Virus record (IMG/VR): IMGVR_UViG_3300046002_004363
Span: 1 to 64,000 of that record
From: a virus
Length of the DNA stretch: 64,000 bases
Reading direction: 5' to 3' (one strand)
Under the pieces are notes generated by a model. The model made no database searches. It had not been told where the DNA came from and saw nothing but the letters and a program-made list of their open reading frames with translations. Made by a program: the position numbers and the translations under genes. Shown piece after piece: positions 1-64,000 of this stretch. The stretch's first letter is position 1, and each line of letters opens with the position of its first letter.

Positions 1-94
1 TTTTAATATTTCTTTAAAGAGGGTGGAAGAAAAAAGAAAAGAAAAAGAATTTAACGTAGTAACTTCATTCGGAGATGGAATGTAGTATTACTGC

Positions 95-220
95 TAACGT
101 TCCGCATATTAACGATGTGGCGTATTTAAACACATACGAAAACAAATAAACAACAAACAAAAAGTGAGCCGACACATTTCGGATTAACCAAAGCCAAGCC
201 ATATCGGTAATATGCTGTTA
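95..220. repeat. attC-like hairpin element 1 (TAAC...GTTA)
   Basis: TAAC-gttcc-GCATATTAACGATGTGGC pairs with GCCATATCGGTAATATGC-t-GTTA (18-bp stem, one G:T, one mismatch) around an A-rich loop. Confidence 0.8.
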
Positions 221-247
221 TATGATGGCTTTATATTCACAAATATT

Positions 248-514
248 ATGAAAAATTTTAAACAATTCAGAAGAAGTCAAATTGCAGAAATGAGAGAAGT
301 AACAGAAGTAGATATTAATGTGTTTAATAATCACGGATTTATTCATATATCTGAATACCCATTTGGTTATAATGTATCTATTTCTGATGCAGATAAAAAC
401 AACGGAAGTCCTAAAATTGGAGATATGATTTCAAGAAACCCTAAAAACCACTTTGACCAGTGGTTAGTTTCTGAACAATATTTCAAAGATAACTTTGAGC
501 AGTTAGTTGAGTAA
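248..514 (+). CDS. small cassette-borne phage protein (paralogue of 2569-2847); in-frame upstream ATG at 212
   Basis: ORF; ACAAATATTATG start context shared with 2569; C-terminal 35 aa identical to the paralogue. Confidence 0.8.
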   Translation: MKNFKQFRRSQIAEMREVTEVDINVFNNHGFIHISEYPFGYNVSISDADKNNGSPKIGDMISRNPKNHFDQWLVSEQYFKDNFEQLVE

Positions 515-530
515 GCTATTATATAACGTT
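407..530 (+). repeat. 124-bp exact direct repeat, copy 1 (copy 2 at 2740-2863)
   Basis: AGTCCTAAAATTGG...AAGCTATTATATAACGTT identical at offset 2333. Confidence 0.95.
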
Positions 531-653
531 TGCCCGCTATAATTTCAGCGTGGTGTGACACACAATAGCCTTTCGATTAAGCAAAAAGAAAACAAGAGTA
601 CAAAATGAACATTGAATTAAACCTTATGCCACAATTGAATAAACACGCTGTTG
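524..653. repeat. attC-like hairpin element 2 (degenerate)
   Basis: TAACG...TTCAGCGTGG / CCACAATTGAA...GCTGTTG; same length and ends as the others but weaker pairing. Confidence 0.6.
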
Positions 654-826
654 TGCGATGGTGCTTTTAAATATAAATTATGTTAGGACAAAGAGTATAT
701 TTTGATTATGGCTTTGGCTCACGAGGATTTGGAACTTATGTTTATTGTGCAAAAACTCACAAAGTATTAATGTTTTTTAAAGATGAAAATTAAAACCCGA
801 TTGAAAGGTAAAATGCTATAAATATT

Positions 827-1066
827 ATGGAATTAAAAAGAGAATTATCGTTAGGAGAAAAAAGATTGAGAATTAATTTTGATGACATCTTGACCAATGA
901 ATGTAGTGAGCATTTAAAGTTGAAATATGAACTTGCAAAAGTCATAAATAGAATTGATGCTCTTGAACAAAATGGAAGTGAACACGGAAGATTGAAATCA
1001 TTAGCAATGACAGATATTGAAAATGCTTCAATGTGGATTACAAAAGCTTTTACTCACAAGATTTAA
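827..1066 (+). CDS. Acb2/Tad1-like helical hairpin protein, putative anti-defence nucleotide sponge
   Basis: 79 aa; C-terminal RLKSLAMTDIENASMWITKA resembles the Acb2-type R..A.A.T..E...M...A helix. Confidence 0.55.
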   Translation: MELKRELSLGEKRLRINFDDILTNECSEHLKLKYELAKVINRIDALEQNGSEHGRLKSLAMTDIENASMWITKAFTHKI

Positions 1067-1151
1067 TTTGTTCTTTACAAATGGTTGGCGAATTATCAAA
1101 AATTCCGACTACAAAACAATTATTAGAAATCTTCAAAAAAGAAAAACAACT

Positions 1152-1385
1152 ATGAAACAAACAGCAATAGAATTTTTAATTAAACAATTAGAAATTCTTA
1201 ATTTAATAAAAGAGGGAGATATAGAAAACGAACTTTTTAGGCAAATTGAATTAGAAGCCAAAGAAATGGAAAAACAACAGATTATAGATTCAAATATTTC
1301 GGGTATGGAATTTATAGCAGTAGACCCAAACAAATACAATGAAGATGCTGAAAAATATTACAACGAAACTTTTAAAAACAGATAA
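1152..1385 (+). CDS. hypothetical protein, MKQTA...AKEME..QII family (paralogue of 63696-63923)
   Basis: Likely start MKQTAIEFL inside track ORF 1017-1385; termini shared with the paralogue. Confidence 0.7.
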   Translation: MKQTAIEFLIKQLEILNLIKEGDIENELFRQIELEAKEMEKQQIIDSNISGMEFIAVDPNKYNEDAEKYYNETFKNR

Positions 1386-1428
1386 TATTTATGGAATAGT
1401 GGTAATGGAAAAATATTAAATTAAAAAA

Positions 1429-1686
1429 ATGTCGCATAAAAAAATGTCAGAAAGAAAATTAGAATTAGATAATATAGTGGATATTTTATCCAAAATAAAA
1501 GATGATGATTTTTATTTTAAAGCTTATGCAAAAGATATAATTAATAGTTATATTAAGCAAGAATTTAAAAAAGCTTATAGTATTGAGGAAGTAATAGATA
1601 TTTTAGAAATATTTCGTTATGATATTGAACAAGGAAATGATTCGGAAAATATTCAAGAATGGTTTAAAAAATACATAAAACAATAA
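1429..1686 (+). CDS. hypothetical protein (YS.EEV family)
   Basis: ORF with YSIEEV...WFKK motif like 62136-62348. Confidence 0.65.
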   Translation: MSHKKMSERKLELDNIVDILSKIKDDDFYFKAYAKDIINSYIKQEFKKAYSIEEVIDILEIFRYDIEQGNDSENIQEWFKKYIKQ

Positions 1687-1691
1687 TAAAA

Positions 1692-1907
1692 ATGAAAGTA
1701 GTACACAGTCCAAGAACAAAAAAAGCCGACAAAGTAGTTAATTTACTTTTTTATGGAGATTTTAATTGCACAACTGGTTTCGGTAATGTATCGAAACAAC
1801 TTATTAATAGTTGGAGCAAAAATAAAAATTTCAATATCACAATATTGGCAATTAATGATTCATCTGAAAAACCATATAATTACAAAAACAATTTACAAAT
1901 TTTTTAA
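1692..1907 (+). pseudogene. N-terminal fragment of a GT-B (GT4-like) glycosyltransferase
   Basis: LLFYGDFNCTTGFGNVSKQL resembles the GT4 N-terminal strand-loop-helix; ORF stops after 71 aa at the junction repeat. Confidence 0.5.
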
Positions 1908-1920
1908 AAACAAATAAGAT

Positions 1921-2070
1921 ATGATAAAAGATTTTATAAAATTTGTAATACTACATCGTTGGAATAAAATAAATGAATCACACGTTAGATTTGCTGAATT
2001 AAGTGAATTTAAACCAAATGGATTACATTTAAGACTTTATAATTATATTAAAAAAATTAATAACATTTAA
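1921..2070 (+). CDS. small hypothetical protein (49 aa, not in ORF track)
   Basis: ATG to TAA between two TTTAAAAACAAATAAGATATG junctions. Confidence 0.55.
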   Translation: MIKDFIKFVILHRWNKINESHVRFAELSEFKPNGLHLRLYNYIKKINNI

Positions 2071-2083
2071 AAACAAATAAGAT

Positions 2084-2353
2084 ATGACAGCAATAGATAT
2101 TGAAAAGTTAAACCAACTTATATCAAGAACTGATATTAGTGGTAACGATAAGGTAAGGTGGCTTACAGACTTCATAGATGGTAGAGAATTTCAGCAACAA
2201 CAAGACAAGAAAATGTATAGCGAGGAAGAAGTAGATGTATTAGTAGATATGTTACAAAAATGCAAAGAATATTTTTTACTGAAAACTGATTCTAAAAGCG
2301 AAGAAAGAGCAGATGCAATAGGAGAAGTACTTAAACAATTTAAAAACAAATAA
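2084..2353 (+). CDS. hypothetical protein (QQDK..YSEEEV family)
   Basis: ORF; motif shared with 62136-62348. Confidence 0.7.
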   Translation: MTAIDIEKLNQLISRTDISGNDKVRWLTDFIDGREFQQQQDKKMYSEEEVDVLVDMLQKCKEYFLLKTDSKSEERADAIGEVLKQFKNK

Positions 2354-2356
2354 TAT

Positions 2357-2524
2357 ATGAAAAATTTAACAGAAACACCAAATCCAGCTGATTTTATGAT
2401 GTTGGGAGAAAAAGCATTTGAAGAAAATGTACATGAAAAATTAAGAGAAACATTATCTCCAACAGAAAAACAAATGTGGATAAGTGGATATTTGTTTGCT
2501 TTAACTCAACAAAATAAAAGATAA
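2357..2524 (+). CDS. small hypothetical protein (55 aa, not in ORF track)
   Basis: MKNLTETPNP... ORF directly after a junction repeat. Confidence 0.55.
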   Translation: MKNLTETPNPADFMMLGEKAFEENVHEKLRETLSPTEKQMWISGYLFALTQQNKR

Positions 2525-2568
2525 AACAAAACAAAAACCCGATTGCAAGGGTAAATGCTACAAATATT

Positions 2569-2847
2569 ATGGAATATTTTAAAAATTACAGAAGAACACA
2601 AATTGCAGAAATGAGAGAAGTAACAGAAAGCGATATTACAGACTTTCATAATATAGGTGCTATTGTAATACCATCTGATTTAGGAGATTGGAAACACCCA
2701 ATAAAAGTTAGTATTTCTGATGTAGATTTATTAAACGATAGTCCTAAAATTGGAGATATGATTTCAAGAAACCCTAAAAACCACTTTGACCAGTGGTTAG
2801 TTTCTGAACAATATTTCAAAGATAACTTTGAGCAGTTAGTTGAGTAA
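2569..2847 (+). CDS. small phage protein, paralogue of 248-514
   Basis: YRRTQIAEMREVTE...SPKIGDMISRNPKNHFDQWLVSEQYFKDNFE. Confidence 0.8.
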   Translation: MEYFKNYRRTQIAEMREVTESDITDFHNIGAIVIPSDLGDWKHPIKVSISDVDLLNDSPKIGDMISRNPKNHFDQWLVSEQYFKDNFEQLVE

Positions 2848-2863
2848 GCTATTATATAACGTT
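2740..2863 (+). repeat. 124-bp exact direct repeat, copy 2
   Basis: identical to 407-530. Confidence 0.95.
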
Positions 2864-2981
2864 AAAGCATATATTTCAGTAGCGTAATAGTAAACAATAA
2901 AGTAAAAATTAAACAATTAATAACCAAACAAACACTAACACAACGAAAGCATATAGTAGCTATTGAATATATGCAGTGTTA
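2857..2981. repeat. attC-like hairpin element 3
   Basis: TAAC-gttaaa-GCATATATTTCAGTAGC / GCTATTGAATATATGC-agt-GTTA, with one bulged T and one G:T. Confidence 0.85.
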
Positions 2982-3326
2982 GTAGCTGTTTTGAAATTCA
3001 CAAAAATTATGAATACAGATGAATTTATTTTACCGATTATTTTAGTTTCTGTTTTGCTAATTATGATAGTAATAGGAAATATTAAAAAACGTGCTTTTTT
3101 GAAAGGATATAAAAAAGCGGAATTTGATATAACATCAAGTATGTTAGATAATGCAACTTGGTTTGGTAGCAGACCGATATTTTACAATACACTTTATTTA
3201 TTTGCTGTTAAATACAGAAAATACGGTTATGTTTCAGCAAGTAGATTTCGTGATGATATTTTAAGTATTGACCAAGAAAAAAGAGTTACAGATTTACCTA
3301 AAGAAGAACTTGAACGTATTGTTTAG
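2976..3326 (+). CDS. cassette-borne membrane-anchored hypothetical protein
   Basis: hydrophobic FILPIILVSVLLIMIVIG; flanked by GTTAGTAGCT (2978) and AGCTACTAAC (3334-3343). Confidence 0.7.
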   Translation: MLVAVLKFTKIMNTDEFILPIILVSVLLIMIVIGNIKKRAFLKGYKKAEFDITSSMLDNATWFGSRPIFYNTLYLFAVKYRKYGYVSASRFRDDILSIDQEKRVTDLPKEELERIV

Positions 3327-3389
3327 GAAACATAGCTACTAACTACTTGATTGACGAAACAACACCACACTGTAACTAACTGATTTACA

Positions 3390-5499: not shown

Positions 5500-5808
5500 A
5501 TGGCAAAACAAAAGGTAGAAGCATTTTTCCCTAAGGAGGAAGAAATAGCAATGGTAGGGGTAATTAATAAGGAAGTCAAGGTGGCTTTCTCAGTAGAGAA
5601 GGCAGATTACGGATTCTATGTGGTTAGATATAACCTTAATGACAATTTAGAGGGTATTAAAGATACCATAAGTTATAAGAGGATTGACACGAATGAGAGT
5701 GATAGTAAGAGGAATAGGGTTGTGTTTAGCAATCAAAGTGATGCAGAGAGAGAGGTTATTCAGTCATACAATCAAGTGTTTAACTATATTCAAGAAAAAA
5801 GAAGGTAA
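5500..5808 (+). CDS. hypothetical protein
   Basis: ORF in operon. Confidence 0.65.
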   Translation: MAKQKVEAFFPKEEEIAMVGVINKEVKVAFSVEKADYGFYVVRYNLNDNLEGIKDTISYKRIDTNESDSKRNRVVFSNQSDAEREVIQSYNQVFNYIQEKRR

Positions 5809-5810
5809 CT

Positions 5811-6206
5811 ATGGGTATAGAAAGAGAGTTCATTCCATATGAACAAGCATTAGCTTTAAAAGAATTAGGATTTGATGAGCCTTGTTTTGGTTATTATACT
5901 GGAGATAAAAAACATCTTGTACTAAGACCAAATATGGGTAGGAGAAATGAAGATTTGAATGATATAGTTTGTACTGCGCCACTTTACCAACAAGCATTTA
6001 GATGGTTTAGAGAGAAGTATGAATTTGAATTTCATATTGGATGTTATAGACATACTTCTGTAAAATACTATCAGGTTTATTTAGATGACGTATTAGGTAA
6101 ACGTTCTTATAGTTTTGGAAAATCACTTACTTACGAAGAAGCAGAACTTGAATGTTTGAAGAAACTAATATCAATTATAAAAGAAAGTAAAAATGGAAAC
6201 AATTAA
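5811..6206 (+). CDS. hypothetical phage protein
   Basis: PYEQALALKELGFDEPC...APLYQQAFRWFREKY...TYEEAE. Confidence 0.7.
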   Translation: MGIEREFIPYEQALALKELGFDEPCFGYYTGDKKHLVLRPNMGRRNEDLNDIVCTAPLYQQAFRWFREKYEFEFHIGCYRHTSVKYYQVYLDDVLGKRSYSFGKSLTYEEAELECLKKLISIIKESKNGNN

Positions 6207-7608: not shown

Positions 7609-8565
7609 ATGAAAGAACAACCAAACTACTACGCTATTCTTACAGCAGATGTAAGGTATAGTAAACAAATCAATGCAAACGAAAAACTTTTGTATGCAGA
7701 AATAACAGCTCTAACACACAAGGAAGGTTATTGTTGGGCATCTAATGACTACTTCGCTGAACTTTATTCTTGTACACCTCAAGCTATATCTAAATGGATT
7801 AAAAACCTAAAAGATAATGGGTTTATATCTTGCAATTACATATATAAAGAAGGTTCAAAAGAGATACAAAAAAGAGTGATAAGACTATCTTCAATAGGTA
7901 TAAATAATGGTTTAACAGGTATCAATAACGATACAATAGGTATCAACATAGAATTAAAGGGGTATCAACATACGATTAAAGATAATAATACAAGTTATAA
8001 TAATATAAATAATAATTCTCTTGTAGGGTCTTCTCAGACACCTACGAAAAAAGATTCTAAGAAAGATTTATTTAAAACCAAATTATCAGAAGTTGATGTT
8101 ACTACACTCGATAAGCAAGAACAAGTATATTTTAAAATAGCTATTGGTTTTAGAGATTTATTTATAAAGAACAAAAAGGCTTTAGGTGTTAATGATTTTA
8201 GAGACCAAGAAAACGCTACTTACAAAAACTATGTCGATCCAATAAGATTATCTTTTACGCAAGATAAAAAAACAGAGGAAGATTTTAGAAAGGTATATGC
8301 TTTTTTAATGAATGATGAATTCTGGATGAAGAATATAATGTCTACATCTAAGTTAAGAGAAAAAATGTCTGATTTACTTATAAGATCATCTTCTGTTCCG
8401 ACTAAAAAACAAGTACTACCATCAGACTTTTGGGTAAGGGAATTAAGTGATGAGCAAAAGAAACTACTAAGCGATAAAGATTTAGCTACTTGGGAAAGAC
8501 AGAAGACAGCAAGACTTATGGAGGGCGGTAGAATGTTACCTATAAAAATAGAATATGAAAAATAA
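7609..8565 (+). CDS. replication initiator with N-terminal winged HTH
   Basis: YAILTADVRY..EKLLYAEI..GYCWASN.YFAELY; upstream of primase-helicase; internal iterons. Confidence 0.8.
   Translation: MKEQPNYYAILTADVRYSKQINANEKLLYAEITALTHKEGYCWASNDYFAELYSCTPQAISKWIKNLKDNGFISCNYIYKEGSKEIQKRVIRLSSIGINNGLTGINNDTIGINIELKGYQHTIKDNNTSYNNINNNSLVGSSQTPTKKDSKKDLFKTKLSEVDVTTLDKQEQVYFKIAIGFRDLFIKNKKALGVNDFRDQENATYKNYVDPIRLSFTQDKKTEEDFRKVYAFLMNDEFWMKNIMSTSKLREKMSDLLIRSSSVPTKKQVLPSDFWVRELSDEQKKLLSDKDLATWERQKTARLMEGGRMLPIKIEYEK
7896..8020 (+). repeat. probable replication origin: four iterons plus AT-rich tract
   Basis: GGTAT(C/A)AA(C/T)A at 7897, 7918, 7939, 7961 (spacing 21/21/22), then an A/T tract. Confidence 0.65.
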
Positions 8566-62300: not shown

Positions 62301-62708
62301 GAAGTGGAAAATGTTAGAGGTTGGTTTGAAGAATTTAAAAAGAAATAAGATATGGAACACTTTAAATACAGATGGAAAATAGTTAATGTATACTACGAAA
62401 CTATAGATGATGATCCAGAGTTAAGACCAGATATAGTACTTGATGCCGTTTATTATAATGGTATAGACATATTGCCAATAATGAATGAAGTAGATTGTAT
62501 TGAGTTAAAAGAAGAAATGTATAATCAATTATTTTAAAATATGAATAAGGTAGAAATTATTGCAGAATTAGATAAACTAATGTATATTGCAGAACAATTA
62601 GAGAATACTTTTTTAGTTGGTAGACTTGAGGCAATAAAGCAATCACTTATAAAGGATTGGAATGAGAGTGATGCTTACTATAAAATTATAAGTAATCAAT
62701 TGAAATAA
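59387..62708 (+). CDS. run of small early hypothetical ORFs (59387-59638, 59652-60068, 60081-60377, 60377-60670, 60663-60854, 61049-61255, 61259-61399 Cys-rich, 61598-61945, 62136-62348, 62352-62537, 62541-62708)
   Basis: co-oriented, tightly packed ORFs; 61259 and 62541 read manually. Confidence 0.6.
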
Positions 62709-62821
62709 CGGTTCTCGGCTTGGCGAAGTTGCAGAATGTTGAAATTAAACACTAAATATTACAGATTATGACTAAACATTCAGAAAATACCAAAAGTAGC
62801 AATAGCACAAAACCTGTGTTA
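62706..62821. repeat. attC-like hairpin element 4 (array boundary)
   Basis: TAACGGTTCTC-GGCTTGGCGAAGTTGC / GCAATAGCACAAAACC-TGT-GTTA, imperfect. Confidence 0.65.
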
Positions 62822-63040
62822 CAATCAGTTTTTTTTGACTTTGATTATTGGAATAAATGCAATGCTTTATGGAATGTTTCTCCGCATCATTCTTTTGAAA
62901 ATTTAGTAGTCATTGAATATGTTGGAACAAGTAAAATGAGAATTTCTATTTGTGTTGAAAAAAATGAATTTGAATTAGGTTTAAATAGATTTTGGAGTGA
63001 GTTCAAACGTCAAAGTGAAAATAATGCGTTACGTAATTAA
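62768..63040 (+). CDS. cassette-borne hypothetical protein starting inside the hairpin
   Basis: flanked by GTTACAATCAGTTTT (62818) and AAAATTGATTGTAAC (63039-63053). Confidence 0.7.
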   Translation: MTKHSENTKSSNSTKPVLQSVFFDFDYWNKCNALWNVSPHHSFENLVVIEYVGTSKMRISICVEKNEFELGLNRFWSEFKRQSENNALRN

Positions 63041-63049
63041 AATTGATTG

Positions 63050-63175
63050 TAACGTATGTGGCTTTAAGCAGTTGCCAATAAAACTGCCTTAACTTTTGAT
63101 TTAAAACTAATGATTACAGATACAAAACAACCTTTAAATTTAGCCGAAAGTGGCAATTGCTTAAAGCCGCTGTTA
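63050..63175. repeat. attC-like hairpin element 5
   Basis: TAAC-gtat-GTGGCTTTAAGCAGTTGCCA / TGGCAATTGCTTAAAGCCGC-t-GTTA, 20-bp stem. Confidence 0.9.
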
Positions 63176-63562
63176 CAAGCAGTGTTTTTAGTTCCTTATG
63201 TTCCGTATTATTTACGAATATTTGAACCAATTTACAACGAAAAATATACACTTGTTGGAATTATTGAAAATGAACTTTATTGCAAAGAAACTGAAATAGA
63301 TGATTGTTTCTCTTTTGAAATAGACGAAAATACATTTCCAATATTAAGACCGTTGTCTGATTTTTACGATATAAATGCACCCGCATTTATTGATACAAAT
63401 TTTGATATTCCAACACAATTAGTTTTGGTTGATTTATGCTCTAAAAAACAACATTATTCAAGCGTAAGATATTCAGATATGCAAGAGTTTTTACGTGAAC
63501 ATATTGACATTTTCAATCTTATTGAACAAGATTTAGCCGTTTCAATCCACGATGTTGTGTAA
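63110..63562 (+). CDS. cassette-borne hypothetical protein starting inside the hairpin
   Basis: PILRPLSD, HIDIFNLIE; flanked by GTTACAAGCAGTGTT (63172) and AACATTGCTTATAAC (63561-63575). Confidence 0.75.
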   Translation: MITDTKQPLNLAESGNCLKPLLQAVFLVPYVPYYLRIFEPIYNEKYTLVGIIENELYCKETEIDDCFSFEIDENTFPILRPLSDFYDINAPAFIDTNFDIPTQLVLVDLCSKKQHYSSVRYSDMQEFLREHIDIFNLIEQDLAVSIHDVV

Positions 63563-63571
63563 CATTGCTTA

Positions 63572-63681
63572 TAACGTTCCCACGCTTGGCATCAGTTGCC
63601 TAACGGAATAATCAAATGAATTAATAAAAAACAATAATGTCAAACGAAACACTAATAGGCGATTGTGCCAAACGTGTGTTA
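63572..63681. repeat. attC-like hairpin element 6
   Basis: TAAC-gttcc-CACGCTTGGCATCAGTTGCCTA / TAGGCGATTGTGCCAAACGTG-t-GTTA with one bulged T. Confidence 0.85.
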
Positions 63682-63695
63682 AAAAACGTATTAAA

Positions 63696-63923
63696 ATGAA
63701 ACAACAAACAGCAGTAGAATGGTTAGAAGAACAATTATTTGGTTCATTAGGAATTGAATTAACAGAACATCAATCAAAAATGGCTAATGAAATATTCTTT
63801 AAACAAGCCAAAGAAATGTTTGAAAGTCAAATTATTAATGCACATACATCAGGGCAATTAGAAAATGATTTACTACCAAACGAAAAAGCACAACAATATT
63901 ATAAGCAAACTTTTAAAAAATAA
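63696..63923 (+). CDS. hypothetical protein, MKQ.TA...AKEM family
   Basis: paralogue of 1152-1385. Confidence 0.7.
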   Translation: MKQQTAVEWLEEQLFGSLGIELTEHQSKMANEIFFKQAKEMFESQIINAHTSGQLENDLLPNEKAQQYYKQTFKK

Positions 63924-64000
63924 AAATTATGATTTTTAAATTAATTTTTGAGGACAAACAAGAATATGCACAAGCTAAATCACAACTTCATTTATTACAA

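What the first reader, a model, noticed from the sequence alone, without database searches (positions are those of the whole stretch)
62768..63699. The hairpins supply translation starts in a fixed reading frame
Seen: in 5 of 6 elements the TTA of GTTA is read as a Leu codon of an ORF beginning inside the hairpin: MLLYDGF (212), VLVAV (2976), ...KPVLQSVF (62768), ...KPLLQAVF (63110), and a 20-aa leader MSNETLIGDCAKRVLKNVLK (63637-63699) whose TGA overlaps the next ATG. Element 2 encodes a short leader (605-670) in another frame. Inference: the putative recombination site doubles as a portable translation-initiation module, giving unrelated cargo proteins similar N-terminal tails.
Basis: partly seen in the sequence, partly recalled or inferred. 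Interest (0 to 1): 0.7.

Follow-up and report, generated by a model that had tools for sequence, protein, structure and literature searches.

The report
Phage cassette hairpins carrying gene starts
In this Flavobacterium phage, 110-130-base recombination hairpins sit in front of small mobile genes; in about a third to two fifths of such hairpins the gene's start codon lies inside the hairpin, but the reading frame is not fixed and each hairpin moves with its own downstream gene.

Summary

The six elements belong to a large, strongly covarying hairpin family (TAACGTT...stem...A-rich loop...stem...TGTTA). I found 110 distinct copies in 11 other phage contigs, and more in cultured Flavobacterium siphophages and in 21 of 151 sampled Bacteroidia genomes.

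- **Starts inside the hairpin:** in 36-45 of the 110 copies (by cut-off) the downstream gene's first ATG lies in the loop and the ORF reads through the 3' arm. E4 and E5 in the window, and E7 just outside it, are of this kind.
- **Frame:** it is not fixed. About 20 use TTA as a codon, about 22 use GTT, and 2 use the third frame. Related methyltransferases use all three.
- **Starts outside the hairpin:** about half of the copies, including E1 and E3, start 15-52 nt downstream of GTTA.
- **E2 and E6:** these only carry short leader ORFs.

Five natural rearrangements between near-identical phage isolates all cross over in the 5' TAAC(GTT). The mobile unit is therefore hairpin plus downstream gene, the reverse of the integron order of gene then attC. 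A Xer-like recombinase that lacks the integron-integrase insertion sits at the array end in relatives, but not in this genome.

Earlier notes of this scan had already called the array integron-type.

The parts
95..220 (+). Hairpin E1 (TAAC 95-98 ... GTTA 217-220); no ATG in the loop
   Evidence: 18-nt arms 89% complementary; model R1 82 bits
248..514 (+). Cargo of E1. The likely true start is ATG 248, 30 nt after TTA. ATG 212 is an in-frame upstream extension.
   Evidence: The paralogue at 2569-2847 starts at the equivalent of 248. 'aaatattATG' is the family's start context.
524..653 (+). Hairpin E2, a degenerate member ending in GTTG
   Evidence: Not in the training set; found by R1 at 26.7 bits, E=0.003; weak fold
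605..670 (+). 21-aa leader ORF in the E2 loop, in the GTT frame. It stops 8 nt before the cargo ATG at 679.
   Evidence: Function not shown.
679..792 (+). First small gene after E2. It opens a 2.2-kb multi-gene unit that runs to the TAAC of E3.
   Evidence: start 29 nt after GTT
2857..2981 (+). Hairpin E3
   Evidence: R1 91 bits; fold
3009..3326 (+). Cargo of E3. The likely true start is ATG 3009. GTG 2976 is an in-frame upstream extension.
   Evidence: Start context 'cacaaaaattATG'
3327..3343 (+). End of the last unit of this copy of the array: 13 nt complementary to the bases after the GTTA of E3, then the terminal TAAC (3340-3343)
   Evidence: Read directly; 10 of 12 match, with the usual G/A difference at position 7
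62706..62821 (+). Hairpin E4. Its TAA (62706-62708) is also the stop codon of the upstream gene 62541-62708.
   Evidence: R1 105 bits. Its loop and 3' arm are 84-89% identical to elements in other phages.
62768..63040 (+). Cargo of E4, 90 aa. The ATG lies in the loop 51 nt before TTA, and the first 18 codons are encoded by the hairpin.
   Evidence: The same leader, in frame, heads 10 unrelated cargos
63050..63175 (+). Hairpin E5
   Evidence: 18-nt arms 94% complementary; R1 99 bits
63110..63562 (+). Cargo of E5, 150 aa. The ATG lies in the loop 63 nt before TTA. CTG-TTA rules out a start at the hairpin foot.
   Evidence: The only other Met is near the C-terminus. Homologues come with and without the 20-aa leader.
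63572..63681 (+). Hairpin E6
   Evidence: R1 93.5 bits; fold
63637..63699 (+). 20-aa leader ORF that starts in the E6 loop. Its TGA overlaps the cargo ATG (ATGA).
   Evidence: The closest relative of E6 (L066:1449-1568) has no in-frame ATG here, so the leader is not conserved.
63696..63923 (+). Cargo of E6, 75 aa, with its own ATG 17 nt after TTA, in the GTT frame

Best explanation
The elements are attC-like recombination hairpins that head mobile gene cassettes in the early, variable region of Flavobacterium phages. A unit runs from just after one TAAC to the next TAAC. It holds the hairpin, GTTA, about 12 nt that pair with the unit's own tail, the gene or genes, that tail, and the closing TAAC. 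Recombination crosses over in TAAC(GTT) at the 5' foot of the hairpin, so the hairpin travels with the gene downstream of it and serves as that gene's 5' leader.

The loop is long, A-rich and unpaired, which suits start-codon selection in these phages. In 36-45 of the 110 cassettes (by cut-off) the start codon and the usual upstream context lie inside the loop, and the first 16-25 codons are read through the 3' arm and GTTA. Each gene is fused to its own hairpin, so any frame that stays open will do. In practice that means the TTA frame or the GTT frame, and rarely the third.

In the window, E4 and E5 are of this kind. E1 and E3 have starts about 30 nt downstream. E2 and E6 carry short loop ORFs that end at or near the true start and may help ribosomes through the stem.

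Shown here: the structure, the unit boundaries, the crossover position and the open frames. Inferred: that loop ATGs are used by ribosomes, that the folded gene-sense DNA strand is the substrate, and that a Xer-like recombinase does the work.
For: **Family and structure.** R1 finds 7 copies in this record and 110 distinct copies in 11 phage contigs, in arrays of up to 25. Covariation is strong.

**Unit boundaries.** The 12 nt after GTTA(n) match the reverse complement of the 12 nt before TAAC(n+1) at a mean of 8.7/12 (n=86). The same hairpin's two flanks give 4.3, and random pairs give 4.0 (p about 1e-26).

**Crossover.**
- lillamy9-1 versus 9-7 shows a 439-bp hairpin+gene unit cut out between two ATAAC sites and re-inserted at a third.
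- One deletion and one replacement between lillamy isolates also have their junctions in TAAC(GTT).
- mumin6-1 versus 6-3 shows a 506-bp deletion with the same kind of junction.

**Loop starts.**
- Frames with a long ORF running on from GTTA are open over the preceding 48 nt in 70% of cases, against 33% for other frames (p=2e-7). Of those, 36 of 42 hold an in-frame loop ATG.
- Loop ATGs share the 'tttaaa..aaa..attATG' context of ordinary starts.
- The YopX profile begins at residue 25 of the E7 ORF, with no Met between the hairpin and the domain.
- Methyltransferase cargos have no alternative start.
- The 36 loop-start cargos fall into 32 unrelated groups.

**Recombinase.** A 275-277-aa Xer-like gene lies at the downstream end of arrays in G002 and G005 and in 5 of the 6 MAG contigs that hold a relative at 49-68% identity. 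In all 8 of these loci a conserved 'TAAC nnn ATATGTA' site lies about 60-70 nt before its ATG.
Against: - There is no direct evidence of translation: no ribosome profiling or proteomics was available.
- In many TTA-frame cases a GTG, TTG or ATG directly precedes TTA, and 8 of 21 GTT-frame cases have GTT-ATG. Some starts may therefore lie at the hairpin foot rather than in the loop.
- The null rate of open 48-nt stretches is high (33%).
- The crossover position rests on five events in two phage genera, not in this phage.
- Nearly identical hairpin cores sit in front of unrelated cargos, with similarity ending exactly at GTTA. Crossover at TAAC alone does not explain this.
- This genome has no tyrosine recombinase.
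Confidence: 0.7

Rival explanations
1. First reader's model. These are canonical integron cassettes, with the gene followed by its attC. The hairpin belongs to the upstream gene and offers a start codon, in one fixed frame, to whatever cassette is inserted behind it.
For: - The site looks like an attC, with AAC/GTT ends, an imperfect palindrome and same-direction arrays.
- Near-identical hairpins precede unrelated cargos, with similarity ending at GTTA.
- In the window 5 of 6 share the TTA frame.
- A short site in Polaribacter phage P12002L, likely the attC2 that class 1 integrase recombined at G|TT in a published assay, is matched weakly by the model (PMC9892861).
Against: - All junctions of the five natural rearrangements lie in the 5' TAAC, and the hairpin stays with the downstream gene.
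- Frames are split among all three, even among homologous methyltransferases.
- Half of the starts lie downstream of GTTA.
Confidence: 0.08
2. The in-hairpin ORFs are annotation artefacts. Translation always begins at or after the foot of the hairpin (NTG-TTA, GTT-ATG or later), and the loops are merely free of stops.
For: - 65 of 110 elements have ATG, GTG or TTG directly before TTA.
- One third of random 48-nt stretches here are stop-free.
- E1 and E3 are clear cases of spurious extension.
Against: - E5 has CTG-TTA, with no ATG until near its C-terminus and only a GTG a few codons after TTA.
- Frame-1 methyltransferases have no other start.
- 36 of 42 open frames carry an ATG with the family's start context at 40-75 nt upstream.
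- Leader lengths differ only by whole codons.
Confidence: 0.12
3. The hairpins act mainly in RNA, as processing sites, terminators, stabilisers or translation controls. Gene shuffling happens by ordinary homologous recombination between these conserved intergenic modules, as with the PeSL promoter/stem-loop cassettes of T4-type phages.
For: - The elements lie on the sense strand in front of genes.
- One stem pair is G.U in 111 of 113 sequences.
- A second G.T sits 7 nt from GTTA in 70 of 86 units.
- PeSLs likewise flank variable ORFs and give mini-circles (PMC2839356).
Against: - Junction identities are only 5-7 nt, and one insertion went into a bare TTATAAC site with no hairpin.
- A dedicated tyrosine recombinase gene with a conserved terminal site is linked to arrays.
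- The host-type promoter motif TAnnTTTG is not enriched: 6 found against 4.6 expected.
Confidence: 0.1

Closest known systems
Integron attC sites, and clusters of attC sites without an integrase (CALINs) in virulent phages (Qi et al. 2023, PMC9892861)
   Same: - Imperfect palindromes of 60-140 nt with conserved ..AAC and GTT.. ends.
- Same-direction arrays separated by one or a few small genes.
- Each cassette's two ends complement each other, so that a circle would rebuild the full site.
- Methyltransferases are a frequent cargo.
- No integrase in most phages.
   Different: - The crossover is at the 5' TAAC, so the site precedes its gene. The gene-sense strand corresponds to the integron 'bottom' strand.
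- The internal loop is lopsided, 5-7 nt against 1-3 nt.
- Two positions are kept as G.T rather than as bulged bases.
- The linked recombinase is Xer-like and lacks the integron-integrase insertion.
ORF-11, ORF-17 and ORF-18 in attI1, and short ORFs inside attC (reviewed in PMC8876359)
   Same: - Small ORFs span a recombination site and end at or near the next start.
- They are thought to carry ribosomes through the stem and couple translation.
- The E6 leader (ATGA overlap) and the E2 leader have this layout, and about 10 of 51 downstream-start elements do too.
   Different: In about a third to two fifths of this family the loop ORF is the gene itself, fused in frame rather than acting as a separate helper ORF. 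There is no Shine-Dalgarno signal; instead an A/T-rich 'TTTAAA' context lies 10-25 nt upstream.
PeSL (promoter-early stem-loop) cassettes of T4-type phages (Arbiol et al. 2010, PMC2839356)
   Same: - Conserved structured modules in front of variable small genes in hyperplastic regions of lytic phages.
- The module moves with its downstream ORF.
- A circular intermediate is proposed here as well, though none was observed.
   Different: PeSLs are defined by a sigma-70 promoter plus a terminator stem-loop and recombine by homology. Here no host promoter motif is found, the junctions share only 5-7 nt, and a tyrosine recombinase is linked.
Vibrio cholerae repeats (attC sites of sedentary chromosomal integrons); from general knowledge, not tested here
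   Same: About 125-nt sites that are nearly identical to each other while flanking unrelated genes.
   Different: The gene-site order and the recombinase type differ.

Membership tests
Integron (attC cassettes plus IntI) | Imperfect inverted repeat with ..AAC at the 5' end and GTT.. at the 3' end, supported by covariation | tested here: met
   TAAC in 107 of 110 and TGTTA in 105 of 110; 96.9% of stem cells paired and 470 compensatory cells
Integron (attC cassettes plus IntI) | A cassette's two ends complement each other (circular permutation signature) | tested here: met
   8.7/12 against 4.0-4.3/12, p about 1e-26
Integron (attC cassettes plus IntI) | The gene precedes its attC, and the crossover is at G|TT on the side far from that gene | tested here: not met
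   The junctions of five natural events lie in the 5' TAAC(GTT); the hairpin stays with the downstream gene
Integron (attC cassettes plus IntI) | Integron integrase carrying the IntI-specific extra domain | tested here: not met
   No PF00589 match in this genome. The array-linked recombinase of relatives scores below the cut-offs of TIGR02249 and NF011946. It has 20 residues where VchIntIA has 62, between aligned blocks 13-175 and 196-272.
Integron (attC cassettes plus IntI) | Recognised by the attC models of IntegronFinder or HattCI | not testable with these tools
   Those models are not on hand. Rfam has no match in the window.
PeSL-type regulatory cassette | A host-type promoter inside the module | tested here: not met
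   TAnnTTTG found 6 times against 4.6 expected in the 110 nt upstream of 92 starts. Phage-specific promoters could not be tested.
PeSL-type regulatory cassette | The module travels with the downstream ORF in variable regions | tested here: met
Translational-coupling leader ORF (ORF-11-like) | A short ORF through the recombination site that ends at or within a few nt of the next start | tested here: inconclusive
   E6 has an ATGA overlap, and E2 stops 8 nt before its ATG. About 10 of 51 downstream-start elements have such ORFs. The leader is not conserved in the nearest relative of E6, and its function was not tested.

The most novel reading that the evidence does not exclude
Phages of Bacteroidota carry an integron-like gene-shuffling system built the other way round.
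- The folded recombination site heads each cassette instead of trailing it.
- The site doubles as the gene's 5' leader and often as its first 16-25 codons.
- It is serviced by a Xer-like recombinase without the integron-integrase insertion, acting at a conserved array-end site.
- It is active enough to move cassettes between isolates that are 98-100% identical.
Probability: 0.55. Interest if true: 0.8.

Novelty: new variant of a known kind. Interest (0 to 1): 0.62.

Why it matters
Integron cassettes are usually described as promoterless genes followed by their recombination site. How genes acquire such sites, and how they are expressed far from the common promoter, remain open questions.

Here the site sits in front of the gene and overlaps its translation start. 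Every cassette therefore brings its own initiation region, and many unrelated phage proteins carry the same hairpin-encoded tail.

- **Annotation:** thousands of 'hypothetical proteins' in Bacteroidota phages begin with recombination-site sequence, and this shared tail can create false similarity.
- **Phage evolution:** cassettes can be seen moving between near-identical isolates.
- **Origin of integrons:** this is a Xer-like enzyme working with attC-like folded sites.

The strict claim of a fixed frame is wrong and should not be carried forward.

Tried and rejected
- Rfam at gathering thresholds found nothing in the window.
- The sigma-70 promoter scan was not run, because Bacteroidota promoters differ. 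The Bacteroidota -7 motif was tested and is not enriched.
- I tried to fetch the DNA context of the short, leaderless homologues of the E5 cargo:
  - The search for related loci in viral contigs confirmed nothing.
  - tblastn against cultured phages found nothing.
  - So I cannot say whether the short forms sit behind hairpins.
- A single-sequence scan of bacterial genomes for the recombinase found nothing. The alignment-based scan worked.
- I compared upstream and downstream hairpin similarity for homologous cargos, to test which hairpin travels with the gene. The test was underpowered, with only 6 usable pairs.
- Considered and rejected:
  - MITE or transposon: no target duplication, and insertion at a TAAC site.
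  - IS200/IS605-type ends: here the repeat is a long-range inverted repeat, not two separate end hairpins.
  - T7-like RNase III sites as the sole explanation: the DNA junctions argue against it.
  - N4-type hairpin promoters: the elements also occur in small siphophages.
- No structure prediction was run, as it would not bear on the question.

Full report
**What the window is.**
The window is the first 64 kb of a 99.6-kb IMG/VR virus record. A self-comparison shows that the record holds about 1.6 genome lengths of two related phages, with a period of about 61.3 kb. Position 3672 matches 65010, and the match continues at 78-98% identity. The structural genes are 92% identical to Flavobacterium podophages of the genus Elemovirus. 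The two ends of the window (1-3343 and 62706-64000) are therefore two different versions of the same variable early region. They share almost nothing with each other.

**The elements.**
Each folds into a long imperfect hairpin around an A-rich loop of about 50-80 nt. A seventh element, E7, lies at 64217-64346, just beyond the window.

An alignment of five window elements, E7 and five relatives gave a consensus stem in which 10 of 15 pairs have compensatory changes. I built a covariance model, R1, from that alignment.
- In the 99.6-kb record, R1 finds exactly these seven elements below E=0.01 (one weak extra match at E=0.24), all on the gene strand. E2 was not used in training and scores E=0.003.
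- In 11 other viral contigs, R1 finds 119 hits, of which 110 are distinct and complete. They form arrays of up to 25 copies spaced about 300-900 bp apart.
- On these sequences 96.9% of stem cells pair, against 70.7% in shuffles and 33-46% when partners are slid. There are 470 compensatory cells against 116 in shuffles. The alignment was fitted to the model, which favours the structure.
- One stem pair is G.T in 111 of 113 sequences.
- The family also occurs in about 46 cultured Flavobacterium siphophages, once in Polaribacter phage P12002L together with one weak short match (E=0.79), and in 21 of 151 sampled Bacteroidia genomes.

**Checking the observation.**
All the quoted ORFs exist at the stated places. 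On reading frame, the larger set gives a clear answer.

| Where the cargo's first ATG lies | Number of elements | Frame |
|---|---|---|
| In the loop, 43-71 nt before TTA | about 45 | about 20 in the TTA frame, about 22 in the GTT frame, 2 in the third frame |
| 15-52 nt after GTTA | about 55 | all three frames |

- The third frame is usually closed, because GTTA followed by A or G makes TAA or TAG.
- Five related DNA methyltransferases are joined to their hairpins in frames 0, 1 and 2.
- The frame is therefore not a property of the site.

**Are the loop starts real?**
Several lines of evidence say yes for a subset.
1. Frames in which a long ORF runs on from GTTA are stop-free over the preceding 48 nt in 70% of cases. 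Other frames are stop-free in 33% (Fisher p=2e-7). Of the open ones, 36 of 42 hold an in-frame ATG 40-75 nt upstream.
2. Loop ATGs sit in the same context as ordinary downstream starts, 'tttaaa ... aaa ... attATG' followed by an A-rich second codon. A TTTAAA motif peaks 10-25 nt before the start.
3. Leader lengths within a frame class differ only by whole codons: 45, 51, 54 and 63 nt, or 43, 46, 52, 61 and 70 nt.
4. The cargo behind E7 is a YopX protein. The Pfam profile begins at its position 2 at residue 25 of the loop-ATG ORF, and TTA is residue 18. The next Met would cut off the conserved KFRAW motif. A YopX gene in another array starts MREIKFRA directly.
5. The E5 ORF has CTG before TTA and no internal Met until near the C-terminus.
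6. Homologues of the E5 cargo fall into two forms:
   - a long form with a variable hydrophilic leader ending in KP(L/V)L..VFL;
   - a short form of 130-136 aa that begins MK.FLLLQ, eight residues before the conserved PYL motif.
7. The 36 loop-start cargos fall into 32 unrelated similarity groups. Ten of them carry almost the same 18-aa tail.
8. GenBank annotation already uses such a loop ATG: lillamy9-1 gp024 starts at 8404, 51 nt before TTA.

**Element-by-element reading in the window.**
- **E4 and E5:** supported as hairpin-internal starts by the evidence above.
- **E1 and E3:** ATG 212 and GTG 2976 lack the start context. ATG 248 and ATG 3009 have it. The paralogue of the E1 cargo at 2569 begins at the position equivalent to 248. 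These two 'starts' are best read as upstream extensions.
- **E6 and E2:** these carry short loop ORFs that end at (ATGA) or 8 nt before the real start. About 10 of 51 downstream-start elements have such ORFs. The nearest relative of E6 has no in-frame ATG there, so the feature is occasional rather than conserved.

**What moves.**
The 12 nt after GTTA of element n match the reverse complement of the 12 nt before TAAC of element n+1. The mean is 8.7/12 and the mode is 10 (n=86). The two flanks of one hairpin give 4.3, and random pairs give 4.0 (p about 1e-26). In the window the values are E4 to E5 10/12, E5 to E6 9/12 and E6 to E7 11/12. By direct reading E1 to E2 gives 9/12.

The mismatch is systematic. 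Position +7 is G opposite T in 70 of 86 units and is almost never a Watson-Crick pair. The upstream gene's stop codon sits at -12 in 42 of about 108 elements. This is the circular-permutation signature of a cassette, but it does not say on which side the crossover lies.

Natural variants do say.
- **lillamy9-1 versus 9-7 (98-100% identical), translocation.** A 439-bp unit made of hairpin X plus gp015 was removed between ACATAAC|G and TTATAAC|G. It was re-inserted at a bare TTATAAC|T site at the end of the array.
- **lillamy9-7, deletion.** A 469-bp deletion has its junction in TAACGTT.
- **lillamy9-6, replacement.** A cassette replacement has both junctions in TAACGTT.
- **mumin6-1 versus 6-3, deletion.** A 506-bp hairpin+gene deletion has the same kind of junction.

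In every case the hairpin goes with the gene downstream of it. The gene-sense strand therefore corresponds to the integron 'bottom' strand, which is cut in ..AA|C at its 5' end. The order is site then gene.

This explains why the frame can differ from cassette to cassette and still always fit: hairpin and gene are one unit. It does not explain why nearly identical hairpin cores precede unrelated cargos with similarity ending exactly at GTTA. Rarer exchange at the other foot, or homogenisation of hairpins, must be assumed.

**The enzyme.**
This genome has no tyrosine recombinase. Two of the 11 related contigs do. Each carries a 275-277-aa protein immediately after the last cassette, on the same strand.
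- It scores below the curated cut-offs of the XerA, XerC, XerD and integron-integrase models.
- It has 20 residues where Vibrio IntIA has the 62 that include the integron-specific insertion.
- Relatives at 49-68% identity occur in six MAG contigs, plus a truncated seventh. In five of the six, R1 hairpins lie upstream on the same strand.
- In eight loci a terminal TAAC, followed by a conserved ..ATATGTA.., lies about 60-70 nt before the recombinase ATG. This is an attI-like position.
- The array ends in this record and in lillamy share a similar terminal sequence, TAAC|TACAAyATTACAT.ATAAAAAATATTATTTTCT.

**Comparison with what is known.**
- CALINs in virulent phages, including a Polaribacter phage, have been reported, and some of their sites recombine with class 1 integrase (PMC9892861).
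- The paper that described the siphophages mentions no hairpins, repeats or cassettes (PMC7077304).
- Short ORFs across attI1, and inside attC sites, that aid translation of the next cassette are known (PMC8876359).
- PeSL modules of T4-type phages travel with downstream ORFs (PMC2839356).
- I found no paper describing the site-before-gene order, in-frame fusion of genes to the site, or the Xer-like partner.
- Earlier notes of this scan already called the array integron-type and CALIN-like.

**Verdict.**
The claim of a fixed frame is refuted. The claim that hairpins supply starts holds for roughly a third to two fifths of the family, and for two of the six window elements. The mechanism differs from the one proposed: the hairpin is the leader of its own cassette.

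Noticed in passing
window 1-64000 and G000 64001-99577: The virus record is not one genome. It is about 1.6 genome lengths of two related strains joined head to tail, with a period of about 61.3 kb and 78-98% identity. Window 1-3343 and 62706-64000 are two alleles of the same variable region.
   Followed up: yes
L075 (lillamy9-1) 5637-6091 versus L077 (lillamy9-7) 2037-2491: A hairpin+gene unit has moved from the middle of the array to its end between isolates that are 98-100% identical. The junctions lie in ATAAC. Further cassette deletions and replacements occur in lillamy9-6, lillamy9-7 and mumin6-3.
   Followed up: yes
L073:1198-2031 (+), L074:1450-2277 (-), L079-L085: A Xer-like tyrosine recombinase of 275-277 aa, without the integron-integrase insertion, is linked to the downstream end of the arrays. 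A conserved 'TAAC nnn ATATGTA' site lies about 60-70 nt before its start. It is absent from this genome.
   Followed up: partly
alignment A2, columns 34/281; also +7 after GTTA against -7 before the next TAAC: Two stem positions are kept as G.T on the gene-sense strand (111 of 113 and 70 of 86) and almost never as Watson-Crick pairs. This may be a strand-choice signal or an RNA feature.
   Followed up: partly
window 83-85, 512-514, 2845-2847, 63038-63040, 63560-63562; also 62706-62708: The stop codon of the upstream gene lies exactly 12 nt before TAAC in five of the six window elements, and in E7 just outside the window. In E4 it is the TAA of TAAC itself. Across the family, TAA or TAG occupies -12 in 42 of about 108 elements.
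   Followed up: partly
92 cassette starts in L002-L072: A TTTAAA motif peaks 10-25 nt upstream of start codons, whether these lie in the loop or after the hairpin. It could be a translation or a phage-promoter signal. The host -7 promoter motif is not enriched.
   Followed up: partly
G017-G163 (21 of 151 sampled Bacteroidia genomes), e.g. G025:C12:208066-226574: Hairpins of the same family occur in bacterial genomes, with up to 5 in 18 kb. I did not examine whether these lie in prophages or in chromosomal arrays.
   Followed up: no
window 653-2857: The unit between E2 and E3 is 2.2 kb and holds about nine small genes. One of them (2569-2847) is a paralogue of the E1 cargo, and its tail and following TAACGTT duplicate those of E2.
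   Followed up: partly
L075, L102, L078, L073 arrays: DNA methyltransferases are a recurrent cargo: two to four per siphophage array, and two beside the short site in Polaribacter phage P12002L. This fits an anti-restriction role for the cassettes.
   Followed up: no
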